Below, piece by piece: positions 46,736-64,000 of a stretch of DNA of 64,000 nt. The stretch is from an uncultured Candidatus Saccharibacteria bacterium (GTDB lineage: Bacteria > Patescibacteriota > Minisyncoccia > Phycocordibacterales > UBA1006). The stretch spans positions 174,545-238,544 of the forward strand of contig CAYGJA010000001.1 of the NCBI GenBank assembly GCA_964350165.1, read 5' to 3'. A program made the translations under genes and the position numbers. How positions within the stretch are numbered: the first letter of the stretch is position 1; every line of letters starts with the position of its first letter. The notes below the pieces were generated by a model. That model had not been told where the DNA came from, searched no databases, and saw nothing but the letters and a program-made list of their open reading frames with translations.

Positions 46736-47255
46736 AAAAACAACCGGGTTAGTATCCGGCCTCCTTCTTATATTATGCTATTTATTAAAACTTTTGTCAA
46801 ACAGATAGATTCAAGAACTGGCCTTAGATATCCTCGCTGGTTATTGCCGTTTCGGACACTTGTTCGTCGACAAAGAGAGCGACGGTGATAGGATTCGGCG
46901 GAGAGTAAGGGATTCGGTCAGGAGTCGTTATTTTCAAAAATCACTACGTGATTAAGAAAATATACGCTCACGACCCTAGCTTGCTCCCCAATGGTCGGCC
47001 TGCTGTCCTCGCATTGGGGCCCCGCTCCGCTTTTCGAATCCCTTATCTACTACAAACGAAAAGCTCCAACGCTACGCATTGGGACCTAACGTTTGTGGCG
47101 GGCTACCTCGGGCTGGAACCGTGGACAGTCAAGCCCAGTAAGGTTATTTTTTACTATTTCAGAATAACAAATCGAGGCGTCTCGAGCACACTATTTCGTG
47201 ACAAAAGTGACAGATTTAGGAATTAAAAGTTACACTATCCCGTAACATTATCGTT
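46736..47255. other. 520-bp structured intergenic region; candidate ncRNA and/or integration (att) site at the core/island junction; identity unresolved
   Basis: No plausible ORF. Several strong hairpins (ccccaatg...cattgggg at 46986-47019; GGGGCCCC). Plus strand has a GGATTCGGCGG motif repeated twice. Minus strand has GACUGUCCACGG resembling the RNase P RNA P2/P4 3' region. Neither a full tmRNA nor an RNase P fold could be built by eye. Confidence 0.3.
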
Positions 47256-47891
47256 TTAAAAACGACCTTCTAAACCCTTATCCGAGACCCGAGTAACTTC
47301 TATTGAACCGTGACGACCTCTGTCACGTGGATTACTATAGTAGTTACCCTTAAGAGTATTTCCCCCATCAAAAATACCAAGTACACATGTGCCATTATGA
47401 TCTCTCATGTCTTGATCATGATTCACAGTCGCTGTCCTATTTTGATATAAGTAGAAAATACTCCAATTTTTGTGTTCATTTACACCGACATCAGCAACAA
47501 TACTGTAGGATGAAGAATTTTTCGTATAAAGTGCCACGAATACATTTGTGAGAGTTTGCTTTATTTCAACCACAATCTCATATGTTTGAGATTCATTGTA
47601 ACTACTTACCAATAATCCCTCATACCGACCGTTAATATTTGGTATTTGAAATAGCCTAGAAAATAGAGGGTATTTCCATAGCCATCTATCGGTGAGCACA
47701 AAGAATGCAAACATAACAACCACTGTCGCTGGGGGTTCAATCAAGCCCATTCGTAACATGTCATCAACGGGAGGCATCAAAGTAATATTGTCTAAAATTC
47801 CTGATATAACCCTTGCTATCCAAAAAGAAGGTATCAAAGATCCTAGAAAGAACGTTATATAGAATTTGTATGTGAGTCGAAACGCTTTCAT
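47256..47891 (-). CDS. CBASS-type effector candidate: two N-terminal TM helices + about 130-aa soluble C-terminal domain (Cap15/2TM-beta or SLATT-like)
   Basis: TM1 FYITFFLGSLIPSFWIARVISGIL and TM2 PATVVVMFAFFVLTDRWLW, then a beta-rich C-terminal domain. It starts 5 bp after the nucleotidyltransferase gene on the same strand. Confidence 0.55.
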   Translation of the reverse strand: MKAFRLTYKFYITFFLGSLIPSFWIARVISGILDNITLMPPVDDMLRMGLIEPPATVVVMFAFFVLTDRWLWKYPLFSRLFQIPNINGRYEGLLVSSYNESQTYEIVVEIKQTLTNVFVALYTKNSSSYSIVADVGVNEHKNWSIFYLYQNRTATVNHDQDMRDHNGTCVLGIFDGGNTLKGNYYSNPRDRGRHGSIEVTRVSDKGLEGRF

Positions 47892-47895
47892 GCCA

Positions 47896-48777
47896 TTACA
47901 TGCCTAGAGCCAGACGCCATTTTTGCTCAGCCCCTGAAACAGTAGATGCATCATAAGCATCTAACGCATGATTCGAAGACTCGCGTAGCTGGTTGAAAAA
48001 GTTCTGCTGATTTATTATGCTCCATCCTTCAGTTATGTTTTCTACCCCGCAAACACTCGGAATGTCTCTGAATTGGCCTAGTTGTCGGTCCCATTTATCT
48101 AGTATGGCATTGCTCACCAAACAGAAAGTTCCAGCGTAATCATTGTAAAACTTGTCTGATGGCATTGCATAAACGAAGGCTTCCATTTTGAAAGACGAAA
48201 TGGTGTCAGAATCATGAAAGTGGTTTTTTACCCAATTTTTAAACATTCGGACTGTTGGCTTATAAGTGTCTTGTGTTGCTTGTTGTTTTACAACTCCGTT
48301 ATTGTAGTGAGTGCGAGGCATGTTCATTTTCTCAGTTCCTGTCCGCATTGAATAAACAGCAACAGGATCCGTCTTCGGATCATCTGAAATCTGCACCGCT
48401 GGTACTACATCTGCATTGAATGCTCCAGTAATTTTTATACATTTATCGCCACGTTCAATTGACCATTGGTAACGACGCTGGTTCCTAAGTTTCTGTTCGA
48501 TCTCTGAAAAAATACTGTCCCAAGAAATTGAGCCCGAGAAGCGACGTGGCGAATGTACTGAACTGTAAGTCGCTTTGCGGACTGCCACGACATCCACGTC
48601 GTTGATGTCAGAGATCGCCGTACTATTTTTATATGATCCTTGTAGGAAGGTATGATGAGTATCACCAAGCAATTCTTGAATATAGTTTTGAAGTGTGGCC
48701 ACTTGCGTTATTTTCGATGGCGACGGACTAGATGTCAGTGTGTCGATGAGGTGAGTTGGTATGTTGTGGCGTGCCAT
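47896..48777 (-). CDS. cGAS/DncV-like nucleotidyltransferase (CD-NTase, SMODS domain)
   Basis: Pol-beta NTase signature GSYKNSTAISDINDVDVVAV (GS...D.D) plus the downstream third acidic motif FNADVVPAV. 293 aa, typical of minimal SMODS CD-NTases. Confidence 0.7.
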   Translation of the reverse strand: MARHNIPTHLIDTLTSSPSPSKITQVATLQNYIQELLGDTHHTFLQGSYKNSTAISDINDVDVVAVRKATYSSVHSPRRFSGSISWDSIFSEIEQKLRNQRRYQWSIERGDKCIKITGAFNADVVPAVQISDDPKTDPVAVYSMRTGTEKMNMPRTHYNNGVVKQQATQDTYKPTVRMFKNWVKNHFHDSDTISSFKMEAFVYAMPSDKFYNDYAGTFCLVSNAILDKWDRQLGQFRDIPSVCGVENITEGWSIINQQNFFNQLRESSNHALDAYDASTVSGAEQKWRLALGM

Positions 48778-48788
48778 AATTTTTTGAA

Positions 48789-49445
48789 TTACTTCTTAAT
48801 CACATCAATTACTTTCCCGCTCACCTCAAAGTCATCTCCATATGCGATGAAAATTGGATGGTACTTTTCAGTTGAGTCTGCTTCTAAAACAAAGCGGTTA
48901 TGTACCACATCATTTCTAAAACGCTTGATCGTAGCAAGCCCATCAATTACAGCCACTACGATGTCTCTGTTCTTCGGTGTTTTATCTGCACTATCAACCA
49001 CAAGATAATCTCCATCCTCAATAGTAACTCCAGGCTTATTTGTAGGATCAACTTCGGCCTTATTCATAGACGGTCCATCTGCAACCAATACAAACAAATC
49101 TTTTTTACGATGAGGCAAGAGGCTGGTCGATACTTTGAGAAAACCCTCAACTCGCTCATCTGCAAATACAGTAGCGGGACCGCAATTAGCAGTACCGACA
49201 ATCGGTAGAGAAAACAATAGACGCGCTTTAGAGCTTACCGAATTGAAGCCTCGTTTGATTGGTTTGATAACATTATCCTCTAAATTCACTTGGAGAAGCC
49301 CTTTTTTATCTAGCTGAAGAAGATGATGCTTCACAATTTGAGGTTTGTTTTGTACCCCTACAAGTTTGGCCAAACTACGCAAACTCATTTGTCCCAGGTC
49401 ATGTTGACTTGCTAAATTTAATAGTTTTTCTTGTATTTGATGCAT
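48789..49445 (-). CDS. lexA: LexA/CI-like S24 autopeptidase repressor
   Basis: N-terminal LexA-type winged HTH (IQEKLLNLASQHDLGQMSLRSLAKLVGVQNKPQIVKHHLLQLDKKGLL). Ala-Gly-type cleavage region. C-terminal S24 domain with the Ser in ADGPSMN and the Lys in ATIKRF. Confidence 0.8.
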   Translation of the reverse strand: MHQIQEKLLNLASQHDLGQMSLRSLAKLVGVQNKPQIVKHHLLQLDKKGLLQVNLEDNVIKPIKRGFNSVSSKARLLFSLPIVGTANCGPATVFADERVEGFLKVSTSLLPHRKKDLFVLVADGPSMNKAEVDPTNKPGVTIEDGDYLVVDSADKTPKNRDIVVAVIDGLATIKRFRNDVVHNRFVLEADSTEKYHPIFIAYGDDFEVSGKVIDVIKK

Positions 49446-49570
49446 GGTTATATACTACCGTATATTTCTATATATGTCCACAATACTGTCAATTACCTTT
49501 ACACTCTTGACACCTGAAAACAAAGAGCATAAAATGGGAGTGGCTTAGTTCTTTCATTATCAGATTAACT
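49446..49570 (-). promoter_or_regulatory. putative promoter/operator of the lexA-like/CD-NTase/effector operon (divergent region)
   Basis: Minus-strand TTGACA-N17-TAGAAAT. The inverted repeat ATATAC-N4-GTATAT (49447-49462) lies between the -10 element and the start codon. Confidence 0.4.
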
Positions 49571-49729
49571 CTACTGACTATGGCTAAAAGCAATAAAAGT
49601 AAAGTCACCAGCCCCCGAGCAGCGCGTGCCGCCAGCAAAGTTCTACGAGATGGTCGGACTTCCCGATCATCCAAAACTGCTGCGGGAAGTGCTTTGTCTC
49701 AAAAGCCCGGACGACCCAAAAAGCGTAAA
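49571..49729 (+). CDS. small basic protein (52 aa), hypothetical
   Basis: ATG...TAA ORF MAKSNKSKVTSPRAARAASKVLRDGRTSRSSKTAAGSALSQKPGRPKKRK. It is absent from the ORF track (<60 aa) and divergent from the lexA-like gene. Confidence 0.3.
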
Positions 49730-49738
49730 TAAGATATT

Positions 49739-50071
49739 ATGGGAAACCTAAAGTACTACGATATTGTTTTGACTGACTTGAAGTTACATGTGCTTAAAGC
49801 TCGCAAACCAAAATCTTTCGGGTATCAGATGCACAGGTCACTGCGAACCGGAAAGCCTGGTCGAGCACGCAATCACGTTAACCAAATATCTGATGAACAA
49901 GACTCTGATTCTTTTGAGATATCTTTCCCTCTTGGAGAAGAAATCCTATCAGCACAACAAGAAGCTGCTAGACAAGGCAAAAAGTTACGAATTCTTTTTC
50001 CGAAAGACGGAATTCCTATCTTTGCTGGAGAAGATACTCAAGAGTATATCCTCAGCAAAAAGAAAAAATGA
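49739..50071 (+). CDS. hypothetical protein (mobile-element gene)
   Basis: 110-aa ORF. No motif. A 10-bp-stem hairpin plus T-run follows at 50170-50240. Confidence 0.4.
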   Translation: MGNLKYYDIVLTDLKLHVLKARKPKSFGYQMHRSLRTGKPGRARNHVNQISDEQDSDSFEISFPLGEEILSAQQEAARQGKKLRILFPKDGIPIFAGEDTQEYILSKKKK

Positions 50072-50258
50072 ATACACCTGTTAGCAAAACGTGTGGTATC
50101 ACGTATTTCGCAATCTAATTTGCGATAGAAGGTAGTCAATACTACCAGAGAGATCTCCATTGGTCTCGGTCATGCCCACTTTGCAAAGCAAACACCAGAA
50201 ATATTTCTGTTGTCTGTTTTGTGAAGTGGGCATTTTTATTTGTCTAAAAAGATAATTT

Positions 50259-51545
50259 ATGAACAAAAACAAAATCAAAATTGAATATATTCCTATTACT
50301 AAACTAAAAGCCTCTTCATACAATCCAAGAAAGATTGACCAAAAAAGTTTTGATCAACTTGTAGAAAGCATCAAGCACTTTGATTTGATCGATCCAATTA
50401 TTGTCAACGGATCACCCAATCGCAAAAATATAGTCATTGGTGGGCATATGCGTCTTCGTGCTGCAAAACACCTCGGTCGGGAAACAATGCCGGTTGTTTA
50501 TGTAAACATCTCTGACATAGAAGAGGAAAAAGAACTTAACATCAGACTCAATAAAAACACTGGAGATTGGGATTATGAATTACTCAAATCATTTGATCTC
50601 GACCTCCTTACTGATGTTGGTTTCGACAAAATAGACCTAGCCAGGTTTTGGGACGATGATACGAACGAGTCAAAAGATGATGAATTTAATGTCGAAAAAG
50701 AACAGAAAGAAATCAAAAAAACTGATATTGGGTTGGGTGATTTACTCATCATGGGCCAGCATAAACTTCTCTGCGCAGATGCCACTGATCCAAACGCTCT
50801 CAAAGCAGTATTCGGCAAAGACAAAGCGTCAATGATATACAGTGACCCAATCTATAACATCGGCCTGGATTACGACAAAGGCGTTGGTAACAAAGCAAGC
50901 TACGGTGGTACGGTTGACGATAACAAATCTGCCACGGAGTACAAATCATTTATCAAACAAACACTCGAAGCGGCATTATCTGTGTCAAACAAGAACACCC
51001 ATATCTTCTATTGGTGCGACGAAGCTTGGGTCTGGGTATTCCAGACCTTGTACAACGACCTTGGTATCAAAAATCGTAGACTTAACGTCTGGATAAAAAA
51101 CAACGCTTCGCCAACACCAACCGTAGCATTTAACAAGGTCACGGAGTTCTGTGTATATGGGACAAAAGGAAGTCCTTACCTGTCGCCACACATACGAAAT
51201 TGCACTGAAGTTGTGAATCCAGAATTAGGCACTGGTAATGATTTGCTCGAAGATATTCGCAATGTTTGGACAGAAAAACGTCTCAGAGCATCTGAATATG
51301 AACATGCAACTAGTAAGCCACCTCAATTACACGAAAAAGCAATCAAACGGTGTACAAAGCCTGGAGATATCATACTGGACTCCTTCTCTGGCTCAGCCAG
51401 CACTATGGTCGCTGCTGAAAAACTCAAACGACGAGTATATTCAACGGAGCTAGAACCCATCTTCTGTGAACTCGCGCGTCGCCGCTTCGAAAGTTTCACT
51501 GGTAAAAAAACAAAACTCATCAAAAAATTCTATGAAAAAGCATAA
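50259..51545 (+). CDS. ParB-like nuclease domain fused to beta-class N6-adenine/N4-cytosine DNA methyltransferase
   Basis: N-terminal ParB/Srx motif (IIVNGSPNRKNIVIGGHMRLRAAKHLG). MTase motif IV SDPIYNIG is followed later by motif I LDSFSGSAST (beta-class order IV then I). Confidence 0.8.
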   Translation: MNKNKIKIEYIPITKLKASSYNPRKIDQKSFDQLVESIKHFDLIDPIIVNGSPNRKNIVIGGHMRLRAAKHLGRETMPVVYVNISDIEEEKELNIRLNKNTGDWDYELLKSFDLDLLTDVGFDKIDLARFWDDDTNESKDDEFNVEKEQKEIKKTDIGLGDLLIMGQHKLLCADATDPNALKAVFGKDKASMIYSDPIYNIGLDYDKGVGNKASYGGTVDDNKSATEYKSFIKQTLEAALSVSNKNTHIFYWCDEAWVWVFQTLYNDLGIKNRRLNVWIKNNASPTPTVAFNKVTEFCVYGTKGSPYLSPHIRNCTEVVNPELGTGNDLLEDIRNVWTEKRLRASEYEHATSKPPQLHEKAIKRCTKPGDIILDSFSGSASTMVAAEKLKRRVYSTELEPIFCELARRRFESFTGKKTKLIKKFYEKA

Positions 51546-51939
51546 ATTCTCCCAAAAGTTCCTCGATGAGCTAAAGAAAGTACCAATAGTTCAGGTTGCC
51601 TGCGAAAAAACAGGATTGTCTCGCAACACTATCTACCGTTGGAAACGTGAAGATAAAAAGTTTGCTCAGGCATTTGACGAGGCACTATCTGATGGGATTT
51701 CATTCGTAAATGATATGAGTGAAAGTCAGTTACTACAACTAATCAAAGAGAAAAATTTTTCAGCTGTGCGCTTCTGGCTTAATAAGCGTCACCCTGCTTA
51801 CAAAGACAAACTAGAGGTGACACGATCTGGAAATATTGAAGAACTTACTCCAGAACAACAAGCTACTGTTCGCAAAGCACTGGAACTTGCCAAAATTATT
51901 CAACCTAAACAAGATATTCATGAAGAAAAATCACAATAA
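51532..51939 (+). CDS. putative terminase small subunit / HTH DNA-binding protein
   Basis: HTH VACEKTGLSRNTIYRWKRED. Size and position immediately upstream of the large terminase. Confidence 0.5.
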   Translation: MKKHKFSQKFLDELKKVPIVQVACEKTGLSRNTIYRWKREDKKFAQAFDEALSDGISFVNDMSESQLLQLIKEKNFSAVRFWLNKRHPAYKDKLEVTRSGNIEELTPEQQATVRKALELAKIIQPKQDIHEEKSQ

Positions 51940-53458
51940 CATTATTCCGGAAGATCTCTTCCAGACTCTCACCAAAGATAAAACTGTTCGTCGTGAAGTA
52001 ATGAAGAATAGTTTCAACTACTTTTTCCATTTTTACTTTCACCACTATGTAGAATTTGAAACCGCACCTTTCCAACACAATCTCATTTACAAATTGGAAA
52101 ATGAGCCAGATGAGAACATTTATGTCGTAGCATTCCGTGGTTCAGGAAAATCTACCATTGCTACAACGGCTTATCCAATTTGGTCAATCCTTGGGAAGCC
52201 TCAAAAGAAATTCATTATTATCTTCTGTCAAACACGCGCGCAAGCGAAGCAACATATGATGAACATCCGCAACGAACTAGAAAACAATCCTCTCCTCAAG
52301 AATGATCTCGGACCATTTAATGAAGAATCCGATGAATGGGGTTCTCATTCGCTTGTATTTTCAAATACACAGGCCCGTATCACTGTCGCTTCTTCTGAGC
52401 AGAGTATCCGAGGTTTGCGTCATCATCAGCACCGACCTGATTTATTTATCTGTGACGACGTCGAGGACGTACAATCAACTAAAACTCGAGAGGGGCGCAA
52501 CAAGACGTATCAATGGCTCACTGGCGACGTAATACCAGCTGGAGGAAAAAATACTCGATTAGTTGTAGTTGGTAACTTGCTCCATGAAGACTCGCTTCTC
52601 ATGCGTATTCGAGACCGTATCAATCAAAAAGAACTTGCTGGCACTTTCATGTCATGTGCAATTATGGACGACGATGGTAACTCTAATTAGACTGGCAAGT
52701 TTCCTAACCCTGAATCACTAGAAAAGGAACGTAAGAGGATTGGTGACGAAATTGCCTGGCAACGTGAGTATTTGCTGAATATCATTCCTGATGAGGATCA
52801 GGTAATTCATCTAGAATGGCTGCATTTCTACGACAATACCAAGTTGCCGCCAACAGAACATATCACCTTTAATGGCACCTATTCTGGGGTAGATTTGGCA
52901 ATTTCACTGAAAGATACAGCAGACAATACTGCTATTGTATCAGCTAATATTCATGGTCGGAATGAAAAGCTTCGCATATTTATACTGCCAAGCCTGATAA
53001 ATCAGAAAATAGACTTCCCTCAACAAGTTGAACTACTAAAGATGCATCGTGGAGCTGTTCTGAATAAACCCAATGATCGTCTTTTTGTTGAAAGTGTCGC
53101 ATACCAAGATGCATTACCTCAAATGCTTAATTCTCAAGGAGTTGATGCCGAAGCCGTCCGACCATTGAATGATAAGCGGACGCGACTAGCGCTAACCTCA
53201 ACCTCGATAAAGAACGGGAATATCCTTTTCCCGAAAACAGGATGTGAACAGCTTATTGAACAAATTGTGGGTTTTGGAGTAGAGAAACATGACGACTTAG
53301 CTGATGCTTTCTCTCTGCTTATCCACAAGATTGTTGAATTACACACTCAACAAGGAACCATTGCTTTTGCGATTATGGTTACTGGTAGTGACGATGATGC
53401 AGGTATTGTTTATCACAGTGACTATTATGATGTTCTAGACGATTATGATGTCAGCTGA
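51920..53458 (+). pseudogene. terminase large subunit interrupted by a single in-frame TAG at 52688-52690 (nonsense mutation or programmed readthrough)
   Basis: N-terminal ATPase with Walker A AFRGSGKST and Walker B LFICDDVED (51920..52687). After the TAG the same frame continues (TGKFPNPESLEKERKRIGDEIAWQREY...) into the RNase-H-like nuclease domain: GVDLA, ESVAYQD, HDDLADAF. Confidence 0.75.
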
Positions 53459-54028
53459 TTATCGATGTTTAATTGAGCCACCCAGTAAATTCTTGAATGA
53501 AACTTTACAGTTAGTAGCCGCTGGGTTGTCTGTGGTAAGTGTGGAAAATGGCGACGTTTGGTCAGGAAGAATGGGGTTGTATTCCAGAAGTGCTTCACTA
53601 GACTTCACAAACGTACCGTCTTCAGTGTAAATACTTCCAAGAACGGCAACATTTTCAAGAGGTTTTCCGCTAATATTCTTAACTTCACCATCAATATGGA
53701 AATAACCATATTCTTTGTAACAGTTAAAAGATAAAAGTTCGAGTTGATCTATATTTGATTCTTGTTGACGACTAGAGCTACTTGATTCACTTCTTGTGCT
53801 TGATGGTGATGGACTGGAGTCGTTGTCTCCTCCAAATATTGCTGTAAACATAACAATCATTCCAATTACAATGATTATCGTTGCTACAACATTTTGTGTT
53901 TTCTGCTTAGTTCCACAATAAGAGCACTTTCTTGCTTGTATAGGAATCTCTTTTAAACATTCGTGACACTTCTTGGTCGTGTTTGGATCGACTGGCTCAT
54001 TTGCTTTCGAGAGCTTAAATGACTTCAT
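53459..54028 (-). CDS. hypothetical membrane protein with N-terminal zinc-ribbon (CxxC...CxxC), one TM, Ser-rich linker and extracytoplasmic domain
   Basis: KKCHECLKEIPIQARKCSYCGTKQ, then TM IIIVIGMIVMFTAIFG, then SSPSPSSTRSESSSSS. Confidence 0.5.
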   Translation of the reverse strand: MKSFKLSKANEPVDPNTTKKCHECLKEIPIQARKCSYCGTKQKTQNVVATIIIVIGMIVMFTAIFGGDNDSSPSPSSTRSESSSSSRQQESNIDQLELLSFNCYKEYGYFHIDGEVKNISGKPLENVAVLGSIYTEDGTFVKSSEALLEYNPILPDQTSPFSTLTTDNPAATNCKVSFKNLLGGSIKHR

Positions 54029-54300
54029 AATAAAAACGTACCTAATTAATAATCAGGCAGTGGGCATATAAAAATCCCACCACCAAGTACAGCCGGAGCT
54101 GATATCGCAGATTTCTCTGAAATAGCACGAAGAGTGACCCTTGATGATGGGGTTTCAATACTCTTCGTGTCTAACGATATTTGGACCATACCGCCGTCGA
54201 AACGACGTCGGGTTAGGCCACTAAGTTGTTTTTCTATAGTACTCAACTACTACCTGAATAGCAATCAAATACTATAATTTCATTGTATCGCTGTTTGAGT

Positions 54301-54342
54301 CTTTTGCTAAACGTTTTGCCAACGTTTTTAGCTTAGCAAAGC
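54301..54342. repeat. nested inverted repeats upstream of the serine recombinase gene (candidate att/operator)
   Basis: cttttgctAAACGTTTtgccAACGTTTttagcttagcaaag. Two AACGTT-containing palindromes are bracketed by ttgctaa/ttagcaa. Confidence 0.4.
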
Positions 54343-54367
54343 AAGTGAACTCTGGCATTAATAGAAT

Positions 54368-55651
54368 ATGGAAAAAGAAGCAAAACTACGCTATTGCCTA
54401 TACGCCAGAAAAAGCACCGAGAGCGATGAACGCCAAGCTTTGTCAATTGAGTCTCAAGTGAAAGAGATGCTTCAAATTGCTGAAAAAGATGGACTAGATA
54501 TTGTCGATATTCGACGTGAAGCCAAGTCTGCTAAAGATTCTGGCAACAGGCCAGTGTTCAAAGAATTACTCAGTGATGTAAAACAAGAACGATTCAATGC
54601 GATTCTGACTTGGGCACCAGATCGGCTGTCTAGAAATGCTGGAGATCTTGGTTCAGTTGTTGATTTGATGGATGATAAGAAACTCTTGTCGATCCGGACA
54701 TATGGTCAAACATTTTCCAACTCACCCAACGAAAAGTTCTTGCTGATGATCCTGTGTTCGCAAGCGAAACTAGAAAACGATAACCGAGGTATTAACGTAA
54801 AACGAGGGCTCCGTACTAGATGTGAAATGGGACTGTGGCCCACTAATGCCCCTACGGGTTACGTCAAAGAAAAGCGCACTGACCGAAAGTGTCAATGCCT
54901 TCTGGATCCAGAGCGAGCGCCAGTAATTAAACAAATGTTTGAGAAGGTCGCATACGAAAAATGGTCAGGACGGAAGCTCTACCACTGGCTCAAGTTTGAT
55001 TTGAACTTCAGGACTGGCAAAGGCAAGAAACATCTCAGCCTCGGTAACATTTACCGCATCCTCGAAAACACCTTTTACTACGGCGAATTTGAATATCCAC
55101 GAAAGTCTGGTAATTGGTACCAAGGAAAACACGAACCAATCATTACCAAAGAACTATTTGACCTGGTTCAAGAACAAGTTAAAAACTCCCAACTGGTTCG
55201 CAAAGAAAACATCGAGTTTGCTTTTACCAAAATCATGAAATGTGGACTTTGCGGATCTGGTATATCCGCCACCGAGAAGTTCAAAAGGCTCAAAGCTGGC
55301 GGGTACAATCGCCATGTCTACTACGGTTGCACCAAGGCAAGAGATAAGCATTGCAAATGCGGCTATATCAATGAGACTGACCTGATAAAACAACTTCAAC
55401 AGCTCACTGGCCAACTCGATCTCAAGAAGACTCCAATGCAGAGCAAGATCAGGTCAGAAATCCGAAGATTCAAGAAGTTCCAAAGGATGGTCACTGGAAA
55501 AAGTGACAATATTGAAGTTACTGATATTGATGTACAGAATTATGCGAAGTTTATTTTGAAAGAAGGTTCAAATGAAGAAAAGCGAGACATTATAAAACAC
55601 CTCAAGGGATTTCTACTTCTCAAAGAAAAAGAATTATCCATTGAAACATAA
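54368..55651 (+). CDS. large serine recombinase (resolvase-family catalytic domain + recombinase domain + zinc ribbon)
   Basis: YCLYARKSTESDERQALSIESQ (catalytic Ser) and DRLSRN match the resolvase N-terminal domain. 427 aa. The C-terminal Cys cluster CGLCGS...CTKARDKHC is a zinc-ribbon typical of large serine integrases. Confidence 0.85.
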   Translation: MEKEAKLRYCLYARKSTESDERQALSIESQVKEMLQIAEKDGLDIVDIRREAKSAKDSGNRPVFKELLSDVKQERFNAILTWAPDRLSRNAGDLGSVVDLMDDKKLLSIRTYGQTFSNSPNEKFLLMILCSQAKLENDNRGINVKRGLRTRCEMGLWPTNAPTGYVKEKRTDRKCQCLLDPERAPVIKQMFEKVAYEKWSGRKLYHWLKFDLNFRTGKGKKHLSLGNIYRILENTFYYGEFEYPRKSGNWYQGKHEPIITKELFDLVQEQVKNSQLVRKENIEFAFTKIMKCGLCGSGISATEKFKRLKAGGYNRHVYYGCTKARDKHCKCGYINETDLIKQLQQLTGQLDLKKTPMQSKIRSEIRRFKKFQRMVTGKSDNIEVTDIDVQNYAKFILKEGSNEEKRDIIKHLKGFLLLKEKELSIET

Positions 55652-55692
55652 GTAATTTACTTGTACCCCCAAGGGGTATATAATACTTTCGT

Positions 55693-55962
55693 ATGAAAAG
55701 TGACAAATCAGCGAAGCTGGTGATACGCCTAAAGAAGATCGAAGGGCAAGTTCGCGGACTACAGAGAATGGTTGCCGATGATACTTATTGTATTGATGTA
55801 ATTACACAATCCTCTGCTATTCGCCATGCATTATCTTCGTTTGAAGACAAGCTCCTTGAACAACATCTTTCATCCTGCGTTGTACACCAAATCAAGGAAG
55901 GAAAAGAAAGCCAGGCGATTGATGAAGTTTTGGCGGTCCTCAAAAAAGCCAAGAAAAGATAA
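55693..55962 (+). CDS. csoR: CsoR/RcnR-family metal-sensing transcriptional repressor (Cu-sensing C-H-C type)
   Basis: LKKIEGQVRGLQRMV..DTYCIDVITQ...HLSSC carries the CsoR ligand set: Cys in YCIDV and H-x3-C. Confidence 0.85.
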   Translation: MKSDKSAKLVIRLKKIEGQVRGLQRMVADDTYCIDVITQSSAIRHALSSFEDKLLEQHLSSCVVHQIKEGKESQAIDEVLAVLKKAKKR

Positions 55963-55965
55963 TTT

Positions 55966-56379
55966 ATGAATACAAGAGCAACAAAGACAAGGTTATTTTC
56001 ACGAATTGGAATTGGTATTTTTGCTACCGTTGTTTTGATTGCATCCTTACTTTGCCTTAATTCTTTCCAGATGTCGAAAGAAGCTCCCTGTGGTGAGACA
56101 GCACAACATAGCAGCTCGTCACTTTGTGATAGTCCGATCAATCACGTTTCGTTAGCAAATCGAGCAATCCCACAAAATGCACTTGGCCTAGCTGCTTTTT
56201 TCTTACTGCTTGCGACTTTTGCGTTGCACTATGAGTCAGTAGCAAGGTTCTTTAACTCATTAAAAAAGTTTTTCAGCCCTCCGCCCAGACCAATAAGATT
56301 AAGGGCTGTTTCGTACCGAAGTATTTTTGTTTATCTCTTTGCAAAAGGCATTCTTCATACCCAAGTGTATTCATACTAG
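55966..56379 (+). CDS. hypothetical membrane protein
   Basis: Two hydrophobic segments and several Cys. No family motif. Confidence 0.35.
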   Translation: MNTRATKTRLFSRIGIGIFATVVLIASLLCLNSFQMSKEAPCGETAQHSSSSLCDSPINHVSLANRAIPQNALGLAAFFLLLATFALHYESVARFFNSLKKFFSPPPRPIRLRAVSYRSIFVYLFAKGILHTQVYSY

Positions 56380-56429
56380 AGTAATTTCTCAGATAAGAAC
56401 TTTTACTCATTTTTTTAAAAACTCAATTC

Positions 56430-57305
56430 ATGAAAAATACAACTATTATTGGCCTTCTCGCGCTTGTAGTGATCTTGGGTGCAGTCTTCCTAATACGGAA
56501 AGGACCTTCTCAGCAGACAATAACACAGGAACAAAATACAGATGAGGATGGTCATCATGATGATGACAAGGTTGCATCATATGAGATCTATCCAGGGGAT
56601 GTTGCCAAGAAAATAGAAAACCAAGAAGACTTTATTTTGTTGGATGTTCGTACTCCACAAGAGTACGAAGAAGTCCACCTGGAAAACGTCCTACTACTTC
56701 CGGTGGAAGAATTGTCACAGCAAACACTAAATGTTATCGGACTTGGACAGGATAAGAAAGACCAAGAAATTATTATTTATTGTCGCAGCGGTGCTCGGAG
56801 CAAAATTGCATATGACGTAATGAAGTCATTGGGCTACACCAATATCACAAGTGTGGCGGGTGGCATGGTTCACTGGCAAGAAGACAATTATCCATTTACT
56901 GAATCTGGTTCATATCAAGGACCAAGTTGGTCAAATAAAACATCGATGACCGAGAAAGTTGAGTCCACTGTCGGGCCTACAATAACCATTGAAAATGATT
57001 TCCATGACTTTGGCGTTATCTCACAGTATGGAGGTGTCGTGACCAAAGATTTCACAATAGTGAACTCTGGTTTAGGAACGCTTGAGATTGGGACACTGAC
57101 GACGAGTTGTAGCTGTACCTCAGCAGAAATGTCTCGCTCATCAATCCCAGAGGGCGGATCAGCTACCCTTACGGTCACCTTTGACCCTGATTTCCACGCT
57201 GAACCAGGTAGCGTATTCAAACGCACCGTCTTTATCCCAACGAATGACCCAAATACTCCCGAAGCTGAAGTGGTCATTCAAGTAGATATTGATGAAGGTA
57301 ATTAA
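56430..57305 (+). CDS. membrane-anchored rhodanese (sulfurtransferase) domain fused to DUF1573 Ig-like domain
   Basis: N-terminal TM. Rhodanese active-site loop IIIYCRSGARS with flanking LLDVRTPQEYEEVH. C-terminal DUF1573-like FHDFGVISQYGGVV...TSCSCTS. Confidence 0.7.
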   Translation: MKNTTIIGLLALVVILGAVFLIRKGPSQQTITQEQNTDEDGHHDDDKVASYEIYPGDVAKKIENQEDFILLDVRTPQEYEEVHLENVLLLPVEELSQQTLNVIGLGQDKKDQEIIIYCRSGARSKIAYDVMKSLGYTNITSVAGGMVHWQEDNYPFTESGSYQGPSWSNKTSMTEKVESTVGPTITIENDFHDFGVISQYGGVVTKDFTIVNSGLGTLEIGTLTTSCSCTSAEMSRSSIPEGGSATLTVTFDPDFHAEPGSVFKRTVFIPTNDPNTPEAEVVIQVDIDEGN

Positions 57306-57328
57306 TTAACGTAACTAATTTTAAATTT

Positions 57329-57820
57329 ATGAACAAAGTAACAATAATTTCAATTATAGGTGCAGTGGTTGTTATTGGAGGAGCGATTGCTTTTTCTGCG
57401 TCAACCAATCCTAGTTCTACAAGCCTATCCAAATCTGCTGAGGTCACTGTAGCCTCAGAGATTACTGTTGATCGGGAGATACATGACTTTGGCGAGATCG
57501 ACATCTTTGGAGGCAAAGTTCAATCAGACTTTACCCTCACCAATACAGGCACGGAAGATGTAACCATTACTGCTGCAACAACCAGTTGCGGTTGTACCGA
57601 AGGAGTGGTTGGAGGGGAAAATTTTGGTATGCACTCGAAGCTCACTGCTGAAGTCACTATACCAGTTGGAGAAACCGAAACGCTTACAGCAATCTATGAC
57701 CCACTTGCTCATGGTCCGAATGGTACAGGTCAGATTACTCGACAGCTCTTCCTGAAAACCAATTCAAGAACAACACCAGAAATAGAAGTACGCATCTCTG
57801 CTGATGTATACAAAGATTAA
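57329..57820 (+). CDS. DUF1573-family protein (paralog of the C-terminal domain of the preceding gene), N-terminal TM
   Basis: IHDFGEIDIFGGKVQSDFTLTNTG...TSCGCTEG parallels FHDFGVISQYGGVVTKDFTIVNSG...TSCSCTSA in the preceding gene. Confidence 0.65.
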   Translation: MNKVTIISIIGAVVVIGGAIAFSASTNPSSTSLSKSAEVTVASEITVDREIHDFGEIDIFGGKVQSDFTLTNTGTEDVTITAATTSCGCTEGVVGGENFGMHSKLTAEVTIPVGETETLTAIYDPLAHGPNGTGQITRQLFLKTNSRTTPEIEVRISADVYKD

Positions 57821-57822
57821 CC

Positions 57823-58353
57823 ATGAACAAGAAAGCTATCATTACCGTCTTTGTATTCATAAGTGTGTTGATCCCTAGGGCTACGATGGCTCACTGTCCT
57901 CTGTGTACAGCAGGGGCAGGAGCTTTGGCGCTCATCGCAGCATCGCTTGGGGTACCAGGTCTGATTGTGGCGACCTTTGTAGGAGGATTTGCCTTGGCAA
58001 TGGGGATGTGGATCGCAAGAATGATCAAAAAGAAGTACTTTCCAGGGCAAGATCAGGCTGTTACTCTGGCGACGTATCTGCTCACTATTATTCCACTCTG
58101 GCCAGTACTGGTAGATTACAAGGCACTCTATATTCCAGCACTTGGAATTGACAAATATGCTGAAACGATTCCCGTAAACATCTACCTCGTTGGTTCTCTC
58201 CTTGGTGGACTGATCTTGTTCGGATCACCATATCTGAGCAAGTGGGTTTCAAAAACAGCTGGGAAACAATTATTTCCATTCCAAGGCATTGTGATCACGC
58301 TGATATTGCTAGGGTTGTTGCCATTACTCGTTGATAAGTTCTTCCTGACATGA
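57823..58353 (+). CDS. hypothetical polytopic membrane protein with N-terminal H-C-P-L-C motif
   Basis: MAHCPLCTAGAG... followed by 4-5 TM segments. The CxxC sits near the periplasmic face. Confidence 0.45.
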   Translation: MNKKAIITVFVFISVLIPRATMAHCPLCTAGAGALALIAASLGVPGLIVATFVGGFALAMGMWIARMIKKKYFPGQDQAVTLATYLLTIIPLWPVLVDYKALYIPALGIDKYAETIPVNIYLVGSLLGGLILFGSPYLSKWVSKTAGKQLFPFQGIVITLILLGLLPLLVDKFFLT

Positions 58354-58781
58354 TGTATGCAGTAGTGACAATTGTCGGTTCCTTTGTGGTTGGCATACTA
58401 TTGCGCCAGCGATTCACATCACTGTGTGCCATCTGCTTTGCGGTCAGCATTACGTGGATTGTTGGGCTGGTGCTGTTTTTGATCCCAGAGATGGACGGTT
58501 ATGTTGATCCGCTTGCTTTAGGAATTCTCATGGGAGGAAGTGCGATTGGAGGACTGTACTACCTAGGACCACGCACAAAAGAGGAGCTTCATGTATTCAA
58601 GTTGCCTTATGCCATCACTGCCTTCTTTGTTGCCCACTCTGTTATTACAAAAGACTTAGACGTGCGGTTACTCGCTATAATCACTGGGATATGGATTGTA
58701 TTTCTCATTCTGTATGGGACAAGAAATACATCTGCAAAGTCTTGGTTTAACAAAATAGTTGCTTGTTGCAGAGATTGGTAG
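58350..58781 (+). CDS. hypothetical membrane protein
   Basis: 143 aa, 4 TM. Overlaps the previous gene by 4 nt (ATGA). Confidence 0.4.
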   Translation: MMYAVVTIVGSFVVGILLRQRFTSLCAICFAVSITWIVGLVLFLIPEMDGYVDPLALGILMGGSAIGGLYYLGPRTKEELHVFKLPYAITAFFVAHSVITKDLDVRLLAIITGIWIVFLILYGTRNTSAKSWFNKIVACCRDW

Positions 58782-58784
58782 CTA

Positions 58785-60902
58785 TTGGGTCTTTATTCGC
58801 TAGTTAAAAACTGTATGGATCATAGTAAACACGCAGAACATAAAAAAGATACATCTGGGCATGATTGTTGCCATGATGAATCTCCTCAACAAAAAACTCA
58901 TCGTACTCATGAAATGCCTCATGATGGTGCGAGTTGCCATAGTGATAGTGGTAGCCATGGTGCACCTGGCATGAGTCATGGTAGTGCCAAAGATTTCCTG
59001 AAACGATTTTGGACTGTTACGGGACTTCTTGTTCCAATGGTTCTGCTTCATCCTGGAATCTTAGAGTTTCTTGGATTTGAAGTATTTCCAGCTACCAAAT
59101 GGATTCAATTTGGTTTGGCTGTTGTAATCTTCAGATTTGCTCTTGTCTTCTTTGAACATGCTTGGCATGAAATAAAAATGCGTCGCTATGGAATGATGAC
59201 GCTCGTCTCCATGGCTGTTGGTGCAGGATTTCTGTTTTCGGTGGCATCAACTTTCATTCCAGCTTTGGAAGCAGAATTCTACATTGAAATTTCATCGCTG
59301 GTTTGGGTTTTGTTGTTCGGTCATTATCTAGAGGCGCGATCCAGTAGTGCGGCTGGTAATGCCCTTCAAGAAGTGGCGAAATTACTCCCCAAGAAAGCGC
59401 ACAAGATAGTAGATGGTAAAGAGGTTGATGTAGATATTACTGAATTAAACCAAGGAGATACGGTCGTAGTAAAACCTGGCGAAAAAGTCCCTGCTGATGG
59501 AACAGTGATATCTGGGGGTGCAAATGTGAATGAATCATTGGTGTCGGGTGAATCAAAACCAATTAACAAATCATCAAAGAGTGAAGTTGTAGCGGGATCA
59601 ATTTGTTTGGATGGCTCACTTACAGTCGAGCTGAGCCGTGTCGGTGAAAACTCAACTGTAGGTCAGATCAAGAAGCTGATCGAACAAGCTGGTAAAACTA
59701 AGCCACGTTCACAGCGTATTGCAGACAAAGCTTCGGCAGTACTGACATTTGTTGCTGGAACGGTTGCGTTGCTTACGCTCCTGATCTGGACACTGGTTAT
59801 TGGGCAAACGTTTGTCTTCGCGATTACCTTGGCCATTACCGTGCTGGTTATTGCCTGTCCACATGCCCTCGGCCTGGCTATCCCAACTGTTACAACCATT
59901 ACCACATCGCTGGCGGTGAAAAACGGCTTCTTTATCAAAGACCTTAGTAAAATAGAAGTCATCCGCAAAGCTGATTATGTCGTTTTCGACAAAACTGGAA
60001 CTTTGACCAAAGGAGAATTTGGAGTAACCGAAATCGTAGCTTCTGGCAATGCGGATGAAGAGAAAGCACTCTCGGTTGCAGCTTCATTGGAACAGCATTC
60101 ATCCCACATCATTGGGCGCTCAATTCTCGAGTATACCAAGAAGAAAAACTCGGAATTGTCAGATATATCTGATTTCAAAAACATCGCTGGCCAAGGAGTG
60201 TCAGCAAAGATTGCTGATACAGAATACTTTGTAGGTAATGAAAGGTTAATTAAAACTCTGGGTTTCGATTTCAAATCACCTCAGGATCTATCAGGAACGG
60301 TTGTTTTCGTCGCAAGCACAAGTGAATTGCTAGGTTATATTGTGCTCGCTGATGCAGTCAAAGATCAATCATACAAAGCGGTCAAAGACTTGCATAAGAT
60401 GGGTGTAAAAGTAGCGATGCTGACGGGTGATAACGAAAAAGTTGCCAAGTCTGTATCTGATGAATTGGGTATTGATACGTATTTTGCTAATGTTATGCCC
60501 GAGGATAAATATACCCATATCAGAGGCCTTCAAGACGGCGGTAATGTGGTGCTGATGGTTGGCGATGGTGTCAACGATGCGCCAGCACTAACTCAGGCGG
60601 ATGCAGGAATTGCGATTGGTGCGGGTACTGATGTAGCAGTCGAGTCGGGGGATGTAGTATTGATGGATAATGACCCATCTGATATTGCACGACTGATTAC
60701 ACTGTCGAAAAAGGTCTATACCAAAATGATTCAGAACCTCATTTGGGCACTGGGATATAACATCATCGCTATTCCCGCGGCGGCAGGAGTATTTGCTGGA
60801 CTTGGATTCTTCCTGCGTCCTGAAATTGGGGCGCTATTGATGAGCCTCTCGACGGTGATTGTAGTAGCAAATGCAATGAGATTAAAAAGAATCAAATTAT
60901 GA
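58785..60902 (+). CDS. copB: copper-transporting P1B-type ATPase, CopB-like (CPH motif, His-rich N-terminus, no HMA domain)
   Basis: DKTGTLT phosphorylation site. TM6 motif IACPHALGLA (CPH). GDGVNDAPAL hinge. The N-terminal 70 aa are rich in His/Cys (HSKHAEHKKDTSGHDCCHDE...SHGAPGMSHGS). An alternative start is Met at 58815. Confidence 0.9.
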   Translation: MGLYSLVKNCMDHSKHAEHKKDTSGHDCCHDESPQQKTHRTHEMPHDGASCHSDSGSHGAPGMSHGSAKDFLKRFWTVTGLLVPMVLLHPGILEFLGFEVFPATKWIQFGLAVVIFRFALVFFEHAWHEIKMRRYGMMTLVSMAVGAGFLFSVASTFIPALEAEFYIEISSLVWVLLFGHYLEARSSSAAGNALQEVAKLLPKKAHKIVDGKEVDVDITELNQGDTVVVKPGEKVPADGTVISGGANVNESLVSGESKPINKSSKSEVVAGSICLDGSLTVELSRVGENSTVGQIKKLIEQAGKTKPRSQRIADKASAVLTFVAGTVALLTLLIWTLVIGQTFVFAITLAITVLVIACPHALGLAIPTVTTITTSLAVKNGFFIKDLSKIEVIRKADYVVFDKTGTLTKGEFGVTEIVASGNADEEKALSVAASLEQHSSHIIGRSILEYTKKKNSELSDISDFKNIAGQGVSAKIADTEYFVGNERLIKTLGFDFKSPQDLSGTVVFVASTSELLGYIVLADAVKDQSYKAVKDLHKMGVKVAMLTGDNEKVAKSVSDELGIDTYFANVMPEDKYTHIRGLQDGGNVVLMVGDGVNDAPALTQADAGIAIGAGTDVAVESGDVVLMDNDPSDIARLITLSKKVYTKMIQNLIWALGYNIIAIPAAAGVFAGLGFFLRPEIGALLMSLSTVIVVANAMRLKRIKL

Positions 60903-62320: not shown

Positions 62321-62331
62321 TCAGATCTTAT

Positions 62332-63066: not shown

Positions 63067-63068
63067 TC

Positions 63069-63608: not shown

Positions 63609-64000
63609 CAAACACCAATGGTTCGCATGGCTTTCCATAATCGGAGGCTTGCTCCACCTATTATTCGTATCATTCCTCCATCGAGAAAACTTTATCGAAT
63701 TGTGGTTCTTTACGACCGCTGGATCGGTGCAGGCCTTCTTGGGTGCATATGCATTACTTCATCAGGATAAGTGGCGCAAACTCATACCAACATTAATTGT
63801 CATCCATGGATCACTAATTGTAATGTGGGCTGCCACCCGCATCTTCCCAGCCCCATTCCTGACATTCCCAGAAGCAGTAGGGGGTGCAGATATCATTGTT
63901 GTAATTGCTGAACTCTTGGCCGTTATCGTTGGATTGCAAATTCTTTTCCGACTACGAAAATCATTCATTGCTACCACTCTCATTCTTTCTTTACTGATTG
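63598..64000 (+). CDS. hypothetical membrane protein, 5' fragment (continues past window end)
   Basis: ATG at 63598. The open frame runs to the end of the window with multiple hydrophobic segments (MRNNKHQWFAWLSIIGGLLHLLFVSF...). Confidence 0.4.
   Translation, partial: MRNNKHQWFAWLSIIGGLLHLLFVSFLHRENFIELWFFTTAGSVQAFLGAYALLHQDKWRKLIPTLIVIHGSLIVMWAATRIFPAPFLTFPEAVGGADIIVVIAELLAVIVGLQILFRLRKSFIATTLILSLLI

What the first reader, a model, noticed from the sequence alone, without database searches (positions are those of the whole stretch)
47256..55651. AT-rich integrative element with phage-satellite-like gene set carrying the defence operon
Between the GC-richer core genes and the copper island sits an ~8.4-kb block. 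It has a LexA/CI-like repressor, a divergent small basic ORF, a ParB-DNA methyltransferase fusion, TerS, TerL, a zinc-ribbon membrane protein and a large serine integrase. It has no portal, capsid, tail or lysis genes. That combination resembles PICI/satellite elements or a decayed prophage, which are known hotspots for defence cargo: integrase + repressor + packaging genes + methylase + CBASS. Large serine recombinases are uncommon as integrases in such small elements.
Basis: partly seen in the sequence, partly recalled or inferred. Interest (0 to 1): 0.6.

Follow-up and report, generated by a model that had tools for sequence, protein, structure and literature searches.

The report
Terminase-carrying integrative island of CPR bacteria
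The flagged block is the core of a 17.8-kb mobile island, one of a widespread and apparently undescribed family in Patescibacteria that a serine integrase inserts at the 3' end of tRNA genes; the family carries phage DNA-packaging genes but no capsid genes and ferries defence and metal-resistance cargo.

Summary
All the listed genes are present, but the boundaries are wrong. The element starts at a conserved ~150-nt end block (47096-47248). It runs through the "copper island" to a palindrome abutting a tRNA-Ser about 0.93 kb beyond the window, 17,827 bp in all.

It belongs to a large Patescibacteria family with a fixed core: LexA-like repressor, small ORFs, ParB-methylase, TerS, TerL and a large serine integrase. 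Relatives turned up in 471 stretches of species-representative genomes.

Reconstructed attP sites of 26 complete relatives show sharp dyad symmetry around one dinucleotide: GG for tRNA-Ser, TG for Gln, AG for Trp. That dinucleotide is identical in the target tRNA in all 26.

Three cargo bays hold restriction-modification, CBASS, Thoeris, Shedu or copper genes. No locus has portal or capsid genes. Core genes are under strong purifying selection (dN/dS 0.02-0.06), so the family is not decaying prophage.

The window's copy has a nonsense mutation in TerL (TGG to TAG at an invariant Trp).

Best reading: a helper-dependent, satellite-like island. Integration logic and family membership are well supported. 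Packaging into helper virions is inferred. No description was found in the searchable literature.

The parts
47066..47082 (-). Host-side terminator-like hairpin just left of the element. Probably the original terminator of the target tRNA-Ser, that is the B arm of the former attB.
   Evidence: Terminator scan. In relatives the flank left of the block is typically a hairpin followed by a T-run.
47096..47248 (+). Conserved left-end block, attL. The P' arm is TGGC-GG-GCTACCTCGGGCTGGAACC, which mimics in register the reverse complement of a tRNA 3' end. The predicted crossover dinucleotide GG is at 47100-47101. Further conserved motifs follow: GTCTCGAGCAC (a minus-strand terminator-like hairpin at 47185-47172), GTGACAAAAGTGACA, and GTTACA-N7-GTAAC.
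   Evidence: blastn and MAFFT. nhmmer finds one copy per element in about 45 loci, always on the + strand and left of int. Symmetry and covariation analysis.
47256..47891 (-). Cap15-type 2TM CBASS effector (cargo bay 1).
   Evidence: PF18153, 1e-24. PADLOC 2TM effector, 2.6e-43.
47896..48777 (-). CD-NTase (SMODS) cyclase of a two-gene type I CBASS (cargo bay 1).
   Evidence: PF18144. PADLOC cyclase, 6.8e-30.
48789..49445 (-). LexA/CI-like self-cleaving S24 repressor. It is co-directional with the CBASS genes and only 11 nt upstream of them.
   Evidence: PF00717, 3.2e-16. phrog_4 repressor. Cleavage site Cys/Ala-Gly and catalytic Ser and Lys are conserved in 21+2/23, 23/23 and 22/23 relatives.
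49446..49579 (.). Divergent promoter region between the repressor and the rightward genes.
   Evidence: Best promoter-like site of the region is TTGACA-17-TAAAAT at 49507-49535 (+). A weaker site lies at 49480-49452 (-). These are consensus matches only.
49580..49732 (+). 50-aa basic protein of unknown function.
   Evidence: phrog_5079, 1.9e-15. Present at the same place in L067, L058, L092 and L038.
49739..50071 (+). 110-aa protein of unknown function, first sizeable gene of the rightward operon. Candidate regulator or directionality factor (inference).
   Evidence: No Pfam, PHROG or PADLOC hit. Weak homologues at the same position in about 25 loci.
50259..51545 (+). ParB_N-domain / N6-N4 DNA methyltransferase fusion.
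   Evidence: PF02195 + PF01555. phrog_498, 1.2e-85. dN/dS 0.03 in relatives.
51532..51939 (+). Small terminase subunit (TerS).
   Evidence: phrog_4044, 3.2e-12, plus other TerS PHROGs. dN/dS 0.05. The ATG at 51532 is inferred: the codon at 51535 is AAA (Lys), so the Met lies one codon upstream.
51920..53458 (+). Large terminase subunit (TerL), inactivated by an in-frame TAG at 52688-52690 that replaces an invariant Trp.
   Evidence: phrog_38 on both halves. The stop is shown. The aligned column is W in 50/50 relatives and 51/54 relatives are intact. The same split is called on the independent contig L082.
53459..54028 (-). Zinc-ribbon membrane protein in cargo bay 2, possibly for superinfection exclusion.
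   Evidence: Weak zinc-ribbon Pfam hits. phrog_14275 and Sie-like phrog_8545. In relatives this bay is empty or holds RM systems.
54368..55651 (+). Large serine recombinase (integrase).
   Evidence: Resolvase + Recombinase + Zn_ribbon_recom. phrog_95. The 120 best clusters are 77-82% identical. dN/dS 0.02.
55693..64000 (+). Cargo bay 3, copper homeostasis genes: CsoR-type repressor, rhodanese/DUF1573 proteins, P-type ATPase, multicopper oxidase, DsbA-like protein and membrane proteins. It continues 0.93 kb beyond the window to the right-end palindrome and tRNA-Ser.
   Evidence: Precomputed Pfam on L082, which is identical to the window over 11,669 nt. Right end: CAGCTAGCAC...GTGCTAGCTGTCAA|TGGCGGAGAGTAAG. 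csoR or copA-like genes lie between int and the tRNA in relatives.

Best explanation
The locus is a 17.8-kb integrative island of a conserved Patescibacteria family.

Shown:
- A large serine integrase family is tied to a fixed pair of ends. The left end mimics a tRNA 3' end. The right end is a palindrome that abuts a real tRNA gene.
- The reconstructed attP is dyad-symmetric around a 2-bp core that matches the target tRNA (Ser, Gln, Trp or Asp). Insertion is therefore at the acceptor-stem end of the tRNA and leaves the tRNA intact.
- Between the ends lies a constant core: a self-cleaving LexA-like repressor facing a rightward operon of small ORFs, ParB-methylase, TerS, TerL and integrase.
- There are three variable bays filled mostly with anti-phage systems. 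In the window these are a two-gene CBASS co-directional with the repressor, a zinc-ribbon membrane protein, and a copper-resistance cluster.

Inferred:
- In the resting state the repressor promoter also drives the bay-1 defence genes, as lambda cI does with rexAB.
- DNA damage or phage infection triggers repressor self-cleavage.
- The rightward operon is then expressed, and the integrase with an unidentified directionality factor excises the island.
- Its own TerS/TerL package it into capsids supplied by a helper phage, and the methylase pre-protects the DNA.
- In a new cell the integrase inserts it at a tRNA.

The window's copy has lost TerL through a nonsense mutation. It can probably still integrate and excise, but cannot package itself unaided.
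For: Ends and att logic:
- The left-end block is found once per element in about 45 loci.
- The palindrome abuts a minus-strand tRNA 1.6-9 kb downstream of int.
- 26 complete elements span 3.9-20.7 kb.
- attP symmetry peaks at one offset, 11.8 of 18 complementary positions. Other offsets give 3-6, one secondary value reaches 7.7, and attB gives 4.5.
- The central dinucleotide is identical in attP and the tRNA in 26/26.

The window's own right end is on L082.

Family: a syntenic core in 42 of 57 informative genome loci and in about 38 of 43 IMG/VR loci.

Functional constraint:
- dN/dS is 0.02-0.06 for int, TerL, TerS and methylase.
- Invariant TerL columns include K91/S92/T93 and D193/D194, which I read as the Walker A and B motifs.

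No structural genes:
- Portal, protease and capsid proteins of the nearest true-phage TerL relatives have no homologue in the other 129 fetched loci or in the window.
- Inserts between TerL and int are RM systems.

A TerS-only sub-family, 9 of 57, resembles SaPI logic.

Cargo is dominated by defence systems. The repressor's catalytic and cleavage residues are conserved.
Against: - No excised circle, empty site, helper phage or virion-associated copy was demonstrated.
- No replication module was found in the core. Known satellites have one, and headful or cos packaging normally needs concatemers.
- No directionality factor was identified.
- attP-type junctions found in metagenomes sit mostly in chromosomal tandem arrays, not in demonstrable circles.
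- The island TerL clade is at most 39% identical to any TerL found next to a portal, so no matching helper lineage is in hand.
- Promoter and terminator calls are consensus matches, not significantly enriched over shuffles.
Confidence: 0.6

Rival explanations
1. A tRNA-targeting integrative defence island that is never encapsidated. TerS, TerL and the ParB-methylase have been co-opted for another job. One option is interference with the packaging of infecting phages, by cutting or mis-packaging their concatemers. Another is processing of the island's own DNA. Spread would be by transformation, since Patescibacteria are thought to take up DNA readily.
For: No replication module and no helper were identified. 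The island TerL forms its own clade, distant from phage TerLs. The islands are otherwise dominated by defence genes. Five of 57 relatives lack the whole packaging module yet keep the integrase and ends.
Against: The full ATPase and nuclease terminase with its TerS partner and the phage-typical upstream ParB-methylase is kept in phage order under strong purifying selection. A TerS-only sub-family is what hijacking of a helper terminase looks like. No precedent was tested here.
Confidence: 0.2
2. A decayed remnant of an ordinary temperate phage that has lost its structural and lysis genes, with no current mobility.
For: TerL in the window carries a premature stop. There are no structural genes.
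Against: The same compact gene set recurs in hundreds of species with intact reading frames and dN/dS of 0.02-0.06. It has precise conserved ends and a target-matched crossover core. Not one of about 125 related loci retains a portal or capsid gene. Independent decay would not converge on one architecture.
Confidence: 0.07
3. A lateral-transduction or GTA-like platform. The terminase starts packaging in situ from a pac site in the integrated island and carries the downstream cargo bay, the tRNA and adjacent host DNA into particles encoded elsewhere in the genome.
For: TerS and TerL point towards int, cargo bay 3 and the chromosome. There is no replication module. Tandem arrays occur at tRNA loci.
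Against: No structural gene cluster was seen in any fetched flank. The conserved att machinery argues for movement of the whole island. Whole genomes could not be scanned.
Confidence: 0.08

Closest known systems
SaPI/PICI-type phage-inducible chromosomal islands
   Same: Size of about 10-20 kb. Site-specific integration. A master repressor divergent from an operon that ends in packaging genes. Own TerS. No capsid, tail or lysis genes. Accessory cargo that benefits the host.
   Different: The integrase is a large serine recombinase, not a tyrosine recombinase. The repressor is a self-cleaving LexA/S24 type. Most members carry TerL as well as TerS plus a ParB-methylase. No primase/replicase module was found. 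The host phylum is Patescibacteria. Helper dependence is untested.
Capsid-forming PICIs (cf-PICIs)
   Same: Satellites that carry their own large terminase as well as the small one (from my own knowledge of the literature; not tested here).
   Different: cf-PICIs also encode capsid, portal and connector proteins. None is present here.
PLE satellites of Vibrio cholerae
   Same: About 18-kb satellites integrated by a large serine recombinase, with anti-phage activity (PMC9638900, PMC9410903).
   Different: PLEs integrate into Vibrio repeat sequences. They replicate with their own RepA and have no terminase genes. There is no sequence relationship to this element. Their directionality factor comes from the helper phage, and none is known here.
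Temperate-phage large serine integrase systems (phiC31, Bxb1, TP901-1)
   Same: Domain architecture. An attP with imperfect dyad symmetry around a non-palindromic 2-bp core that must match attB. No long direct repeats at the junctions.
   Different: The target is the extreme 3' end of tRNA genes, classically a tyrosine-integrase habit. The P' arm mimics the tRNA arm in register. The core dinucleotide changes with the tRNA used. The element is not a phage.
Lambda cI-rexAB arrangement
   Same: Defence genes lie directly downstream of and co-directional with the maintenance repressor. In the window these are lexA-like, cdn and cap15, with gaps of 11 and 4 nt. Bay-1 genes are almost all on the repressor strand in relatives.
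   Different: Co-transcription is inferred from spacing only. The cargo differs from island to island.

Membership tests
Large serine recombinase integration system | N-terminal resolvase catalytic domain, recombinase domain and zinc-ribbon domain | tested here: met
   PF00239 3.7e-21, PF07508 2.6e-15, PF13408 4.5e-07.
Large serine recombinase integration system | attP with dyad symmetry around a 2-bp core that is identical in attB | tested here: met
   In 26 complete relatives the symmetry peak is 11.8/18 at a single offset, and the core (GG, TG or AG) is identical in the tRNA in 26/26. The window's attL (47096-) and the attR on L082 fit the GG class.
Large serine recombinase integration system | Recombination directionality factor for excision | tested here: inconclusive
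   No candidate was recognised. The small ORFs at 49580-50071 have no informative family.
Large serine recombinase integration system | Demonstrated attB (empty site) or attP (circle) | tested here: inconclusive
   No empty site was recovered. Predicted attP junctions exist in 20 metagenome contigs, but mostly inside tandem arrays.
PICI/SaPI-type phage satellite | Integrase plus att sites, about 10-20 kb, no structural or lysis genes | tested here: met
   The integrase class differs, serine rather than tyrosine.
PICI/SaPI-type phage satellite | Own replication module (primase/helicase or Rep plus ori) | tested here: not met
   None in the window core. None among the families listed for 182 accessory proteins from 22 relatives (only the 25 most frequent families per set were shown). 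None in 10 early-region ORFs.
PICI/SaPI-type phage satellite | Packaging-redirecting gene(s), such as TerS | tested here: met
   TerS in 51 of 57 informative loci, with TerL in 42. PHROG assignments.
PICI/SaPI-type phage satellite | Induction by, and encapsidation in particles of, a helper phage | not testable with these tools
   Needs virion DNA or culture. Only distant TerL relatives (32-39% identity) were found in true phages.
Intact temperate prophage | Portal, major capsid, tail and lysis genes within the att-bounded element | tested here: not met
   The whole element from 47096 to about 64928 was inspected. No homologue of related phages' portal, protease or capsid proteins was found.
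Type I CBASS | CD-NTase plus effector, without Cap2/Cap3 or HORMA/TRIP13 accessory genes | tested here: met
   Cyclase and Cap15 2TM effector only. The neighbouring genes are the repressor and the element end.

The most novel reading that the evidence does not exclude
A phylum-wide, previously unrecognised class of phage satellites in Patescibacteria. They carry a complete terminase (or TerS alone) and a protective methylase, but no capsid and no replicon. A highly conserved serine integrase inserts them at tRNA 3' ends, and it is retargeted between tRNAs by changing the 2-bp core. Because the element's own end mimics a tRNA end, each insertion recreates a landing site, so islands stack into tandem arrays. 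That would make these elements the main shuttle and assembly platform for defence systems in these tiny genomes.
Probability: 0.35. Interest if true: 0.85.

Novelty: new variant of a known kind. Interest (0 to 1): 0.7.

Why it matters
Patescibacteria (CPR) are a large share of bacterial diversity. They have genomes of about 1 Mb, rarely carry CRISPR, and have almost no characterised mobile elements. How they acquire defence and resistance genes, and what phage-related parasites they host, is largely unknown.

A single conserved island type would give a concrete, testable vehicle for that gene flow. It turned up in 471 stretches of species-representative genomes and carries RM, CBASS, Thoeris, Shedu and copper-resistance genes. 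It would also be a first candidate satellite system in this phylum.

The integrase is of practical interest as well. It is a compact (427 aa) and highly constrained large serine recombinase. Its target is short and universally conserved, and nature has already retargeted its specificity through the core dinucleotide.

Tried and rejected
1. Megablast of 47000-56000 against 50,697 phage records gave no match.

2. tRNA and Rfam scans of the window found nothing. The target tRNA lies just outside the window.

3. The search for the right-end palindrome or a tRNA-Ser end inside the window found none. That led me to fetch L082.

4. Empty-site hunt.
   - Exact look-ups of the integrase failed.
   - Contigs carrying the left-flank protein stop at 47053.
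   - A strain with a 98%-identical helicase has a contig that stops inside the flank, around 46995.
   - No empty site was obtained.

5. I first read the common start of three Logan contigs at 47072 (= 47102 - 30) as a k = 31 graph branch between occupied and empty alleles. Host contigs end at 47053, however, and the right-end break does not fit. Small variants in the hairpin at 47054-47071 explain it equally well, so I do not use it as evidence.

6. The scan of JGI metagenomes for the predicted attP junction gave 20 hits. Most are tandem arrays or miniature integrase-less units next to tRNA-Ser, not circles.

7. The homologue search for the 110-aa ORF returned only itself. PHROG scans of early-region ORFs from relatives were empty apart from one repressor. 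I therefore made no structure prediction.

Host assignment rests on named helicase homologues from Paceibacterota, Nomurabacteria and Patescibacteria.

9. TAG read-through or recoding in TerL is considered unlikely. All other genes read in table 11, and the codon replaces an invariant TGG.


Full report
**Observation.**
- Pfam, PHROGs and PADLOC identify these on the minus strand: a Cap15 2TM effector (47256-47891), a CD-NTase (47896-48777) and an S24 LexA-like repressor (48789-49445).
- On the plus strand are two small ORFs (49580-49732, phrog_5079; 49739-50071, no family), a ParB_N/N6-N4 methylase fusion (50259-51545), TerS (about 51532-51939) and TerL (51920-53458).
- A zinc-ribbon membrane protein (53459-54028, minus) and a large serine recombinase (54368-55651) complete the set.
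- TerL is interrupted by one in-frame TAG at 52688-52690.
- The core is 40.4% GC and the host part of the window 45.5%. That is below the range of host 8.5-kb windows (42.9-49.6%), but only modestly.

**True boundaries.**
- A blastn comparison with relatives showed a short conserved non-coding stretch just left of cap15.
- When aligned it is a block of about 150 nt (47096-47248). It starts sharply at TGGCGGGCTACCTCGGGCTGGAACC and has unrelated sequence to its left.
- An HMM of it finds one copy per element in about 45 loci, always on the integrase strand and 5-10 kb upstream of the integrase.
- On the other side nothing is conserved immediately after the integrase stop codon.
- However, 1.6-9 kb further on, relatives carry a palindrome (CCTCGTGCTAGCACGATG or a variant) that directly abuts the 3' end of a minus-strand tRNA.
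- The window contains no tRNA and no such palindrome.
- A Logan contig identical to the window over 11,669 nt (L082) runs 0.9 kb further. It ends in ...CAGCTAGCACAAGATATATCTCGTGCTAGCTGTCAA|TGGCGGAGAGTAAG. That is the variant palindrome also seen in L026, followed by the reverse complement of a tRNA-Ser 3' end.
- The element therefore spans 47100/47101 to window-equivalent 64927/64928, or 17,827 bp.
- The copper cluster lies inside it: CsoR, rhodanese/DUF1573, P-type ATPase, multicopper oxidase and DsbA.
- Copper genes also occur between the integrase and the tRNA in several relatives.

**Attachment-site logic.**
- I split the two junctions of 26 complete relatives at the shared GC(N)GG and reassembled attP and attB.
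- The block (P' arm) aligns in register with the reverse complement of the tRNA end (B' arm), TGGC-N-GG...GAACC.
- The two to three bases before GC are host-variable at the left junction and element-derived at the right junction.
- An unbiased scan for dyad symmetry of the reconstructed attP gives one sharp peak, 11.8 of 18 complementary positions. Other offsets give 3-6, with one secondary value of 7.7, and attB gives 4.5.
- The central dinucleotide falls at positions 3-4 of GC(N)GGC.
- That dinucleotide is GG in elements at tRNA-Ser (and one each at tRNA-Asp and tRNA-Trp), TG at tRNA-Gln and AG at the other tRNA-Trp sites.
- It is identical in the tRNA in all 26 cases.
- This is what the large-serine-recombinase mechanism requires, and it shows natural retargeting through the core.
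- Insertion is at the end of the acceptor stem, so the mature tRNA is unchanged.
- The host flank left of the block is usually the old terminator of the tRNA. In the window this is the hairpin at 47066-47082.

**The family.**
- The integrase has very many close relatives. The 120 best clusters are 77-82% identical, and all 8000 scored candidates were significant.
- 471 stretches in species-representative genomes encode a relative, nearly all labelled Patescibacteria lineages. I did not verify the few other labels.
- By contrast, a housekeeping helicase from the window falls to 56% identity by its fifth hit. Its named relatives are Paceibacterota, Nomurabacteria and Patescibacteria, which places the host.
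- Of 57 genome loci with enough upstream sequence, 42 have methylase-TerS-TerL-integrase in order, 9 have methylase-TerS without TerL, 5 have neither, and 1 has only TerL.
- About 38 of 43 IMG/VR loci found with a TerL profile show the same module even at 40-50% TerL identity, some with a second methylase or a second TerL.
- Among 13 tRNA-Ser-clade elements, dN/dS is 0.021 (integrase), 0.056 (TerL), 0.048 (TerS) and 0.032 (methylase), at dS of about 1.2-1.5.
- Invariant TerL columns include K91/S92/T93 and D193/D194, which I read as the Walker A and B motifs.
- The high integrase identity therefore reflects constraint, not recent spread, and the packaging genes are functional in the family.

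**No structural genes.**
- The only TerL relatives followed by a portal, protease and HK97-type capsid are distant ones at 32-39% identity (L126, L128).
- Their structural proteins have no homologue in any other fetched locus or in the window.
- Where relatives have 5-8 kb between TerL and the integrase, the insert is a restriction-modification or BREX-like system.

**Cargo.**
- Between integrase and tRNA, 83 proteins from 22 elements are dominated by type I, II and III restriction-modification. Shedu and P-type ATPase/HMA copper genes also occur.
- Between the end block and the repressor, 99 proteins include Thoeris ThsA/ThsB, Shedu, CBASS (Cap15, SMODS, SAVED), KAP NTPase, caspase-like proteins and helicases.
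- Genes in that second bay lie almost always on the repressor strand. In the window the gaps from repressor to cdn and from cdn to cap15 are 11 and 4 nt.
- This suggests a cI-rexAB-like maintenance operon that ends at a terminator-like hairpin inside the block, 47185-47172.

**Regulation.**
- The repressor keeps the Cys/Ala-Gly cleavage site and the Ser/Lys dyad in essentially all 23 relatives compared, so it should self-cleave on a RecA-type signal.
- The best promoter-like site of the region faces the rightward genes (49507-49535). A separate one precedes csoR (55656-55684).
- These are consensus matches only.

**This copy.**
- The TAG in TerL replaces a Trp that is invariant in 50 of 50 relatives, and 51 of 54 relatives have an uninterrupted TerL.
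- The same split is called on the independently assembled contig.
- It is a real TGG to TAG mutation, so this copy has probably lost self-packaging. The integrase, both ends, the repressor and the cargo remain intact.

**Mechanism and its limits.**
- The integration system, the family and the cargo architecture are shown by comparison.
- Induction, excision, encapsidation in a helper's capsids and methylase-mediated protection are inferred from gene content and order.
- The main weaknesses are four: no replication module, no identified directionality factor, no helper phage, and no direct evidence of circles or empty sites.
- The chief rival is a non-encapsidated defence island whose terminase has another role.

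**Literature.** Nine full-text searches and one paper read found no description of this element type. Recent work on patescibacterial phages describes ordinary tailed phages and prophages (10.1101/2024.03.08.584096). The closest precedent for a serine-integrase satellite is the Vibrio PLE (PMC9638900).

Noticed in passing
window 46897-47053: A structured unit of about 160 nt sits on the host side of the junction. It opens with a 20-nt copy of the tRNA-Ser 3' end (GGCGGAGAGTAAGGGATTCG) and closes with the inverted copy CGAATCCCTT. It folds stably (z = -3.3) and has no Rfam or tRNA call. Similar units lie about 200 nt left of the end block in L012, L020, L002 and L073, but not in L014, L017 or L021. 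It could be a scar of an earlier insertion or a small RNA.
   Followed up: partly
window 44485-46896: A 2.4-kb strain-specific insertion holds a 451-aa protein with no Pfam hit, a 76-aa membrane protein and a 114-aa secreted protein. In a strain whose helicase is 98% identical (L131), msrB is followed directly by the tRNA-fragment unit.
   Followed up: partly
L152, L136, L141, L147 (JGI metagenome contigs): Tandem arrays occur at tRNA-Ser loci. They contain units of 0.8-1.3 kb bounded by an end block and a palindrome but lacking an integrase. L141 has three palindromes spaced 116 nt apart. Junctions of the attP type (palindrome directly followed by block) also occur inside chromosomes (L024, L043, L054/L068, L057/L079, L080, L087). 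This suggests stacking of elements, perhaps because the tRNA-mimicking left end serves as a new landing site.
   Followed up: partly
L004, L035, L038, L049, L052, L061, L063, L074, L080: A sub-family keeps the ParB-methylase and a TerS-like gene but has no TerL before the integrase.
   Followed up: partly
L096, L099, L102, L104, L105, L117 (IMG/VR): Two TerL paralogues sit in tandem, and a second methylase lies between the ParB-methylase and TerS in a more distant branch of the family.
   Followed up: no
L010 versus L011: The same 16.3-kb element with the same left flank abuts tRNA-Asp in one MAG and tRNA-Ser in another. Both tRNAs begin GCGGA in reverse complement. Either the tRNA-Ser was deleted from a Ser-Asp-Arg cluster or the core is used in both.
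   Followed up: no
L043 (contig CAMTYL010000008.1, 15.3 kb): The gene order is int, cargo with csoR, palindrome|block, cargo, then the orf110 homologue. The contig ends fall between TerL and int. It looks like a circular permutation of a whole element, but only 11.4 kb could be fetched, so circularity was not checked.
   Followed up: no
window 54063-54233: About 170 nt of non-coding sequence upstream of the integrase are 74% identical to the same position in L052, but are not conserved across the family. Possibly an integrase promoter or regulatory region.
   Followed up: no
window 50150-50240: A strong hairpin (ATGCCCACTT...AAGTGGGCAT followed by a T-run) lies between the 110-aa ORF and the ParB-methylase. 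It looks like a terminator or anti-termination point inside the rightward operon.
   Followed up: no
window 41166-42368: The dihydroorotate dehydrogenase gene is present in the window's strain (also on L129) but absent from the syntenic position in the related strain L131, whose helicase is 98% identical.
   Followed up: no
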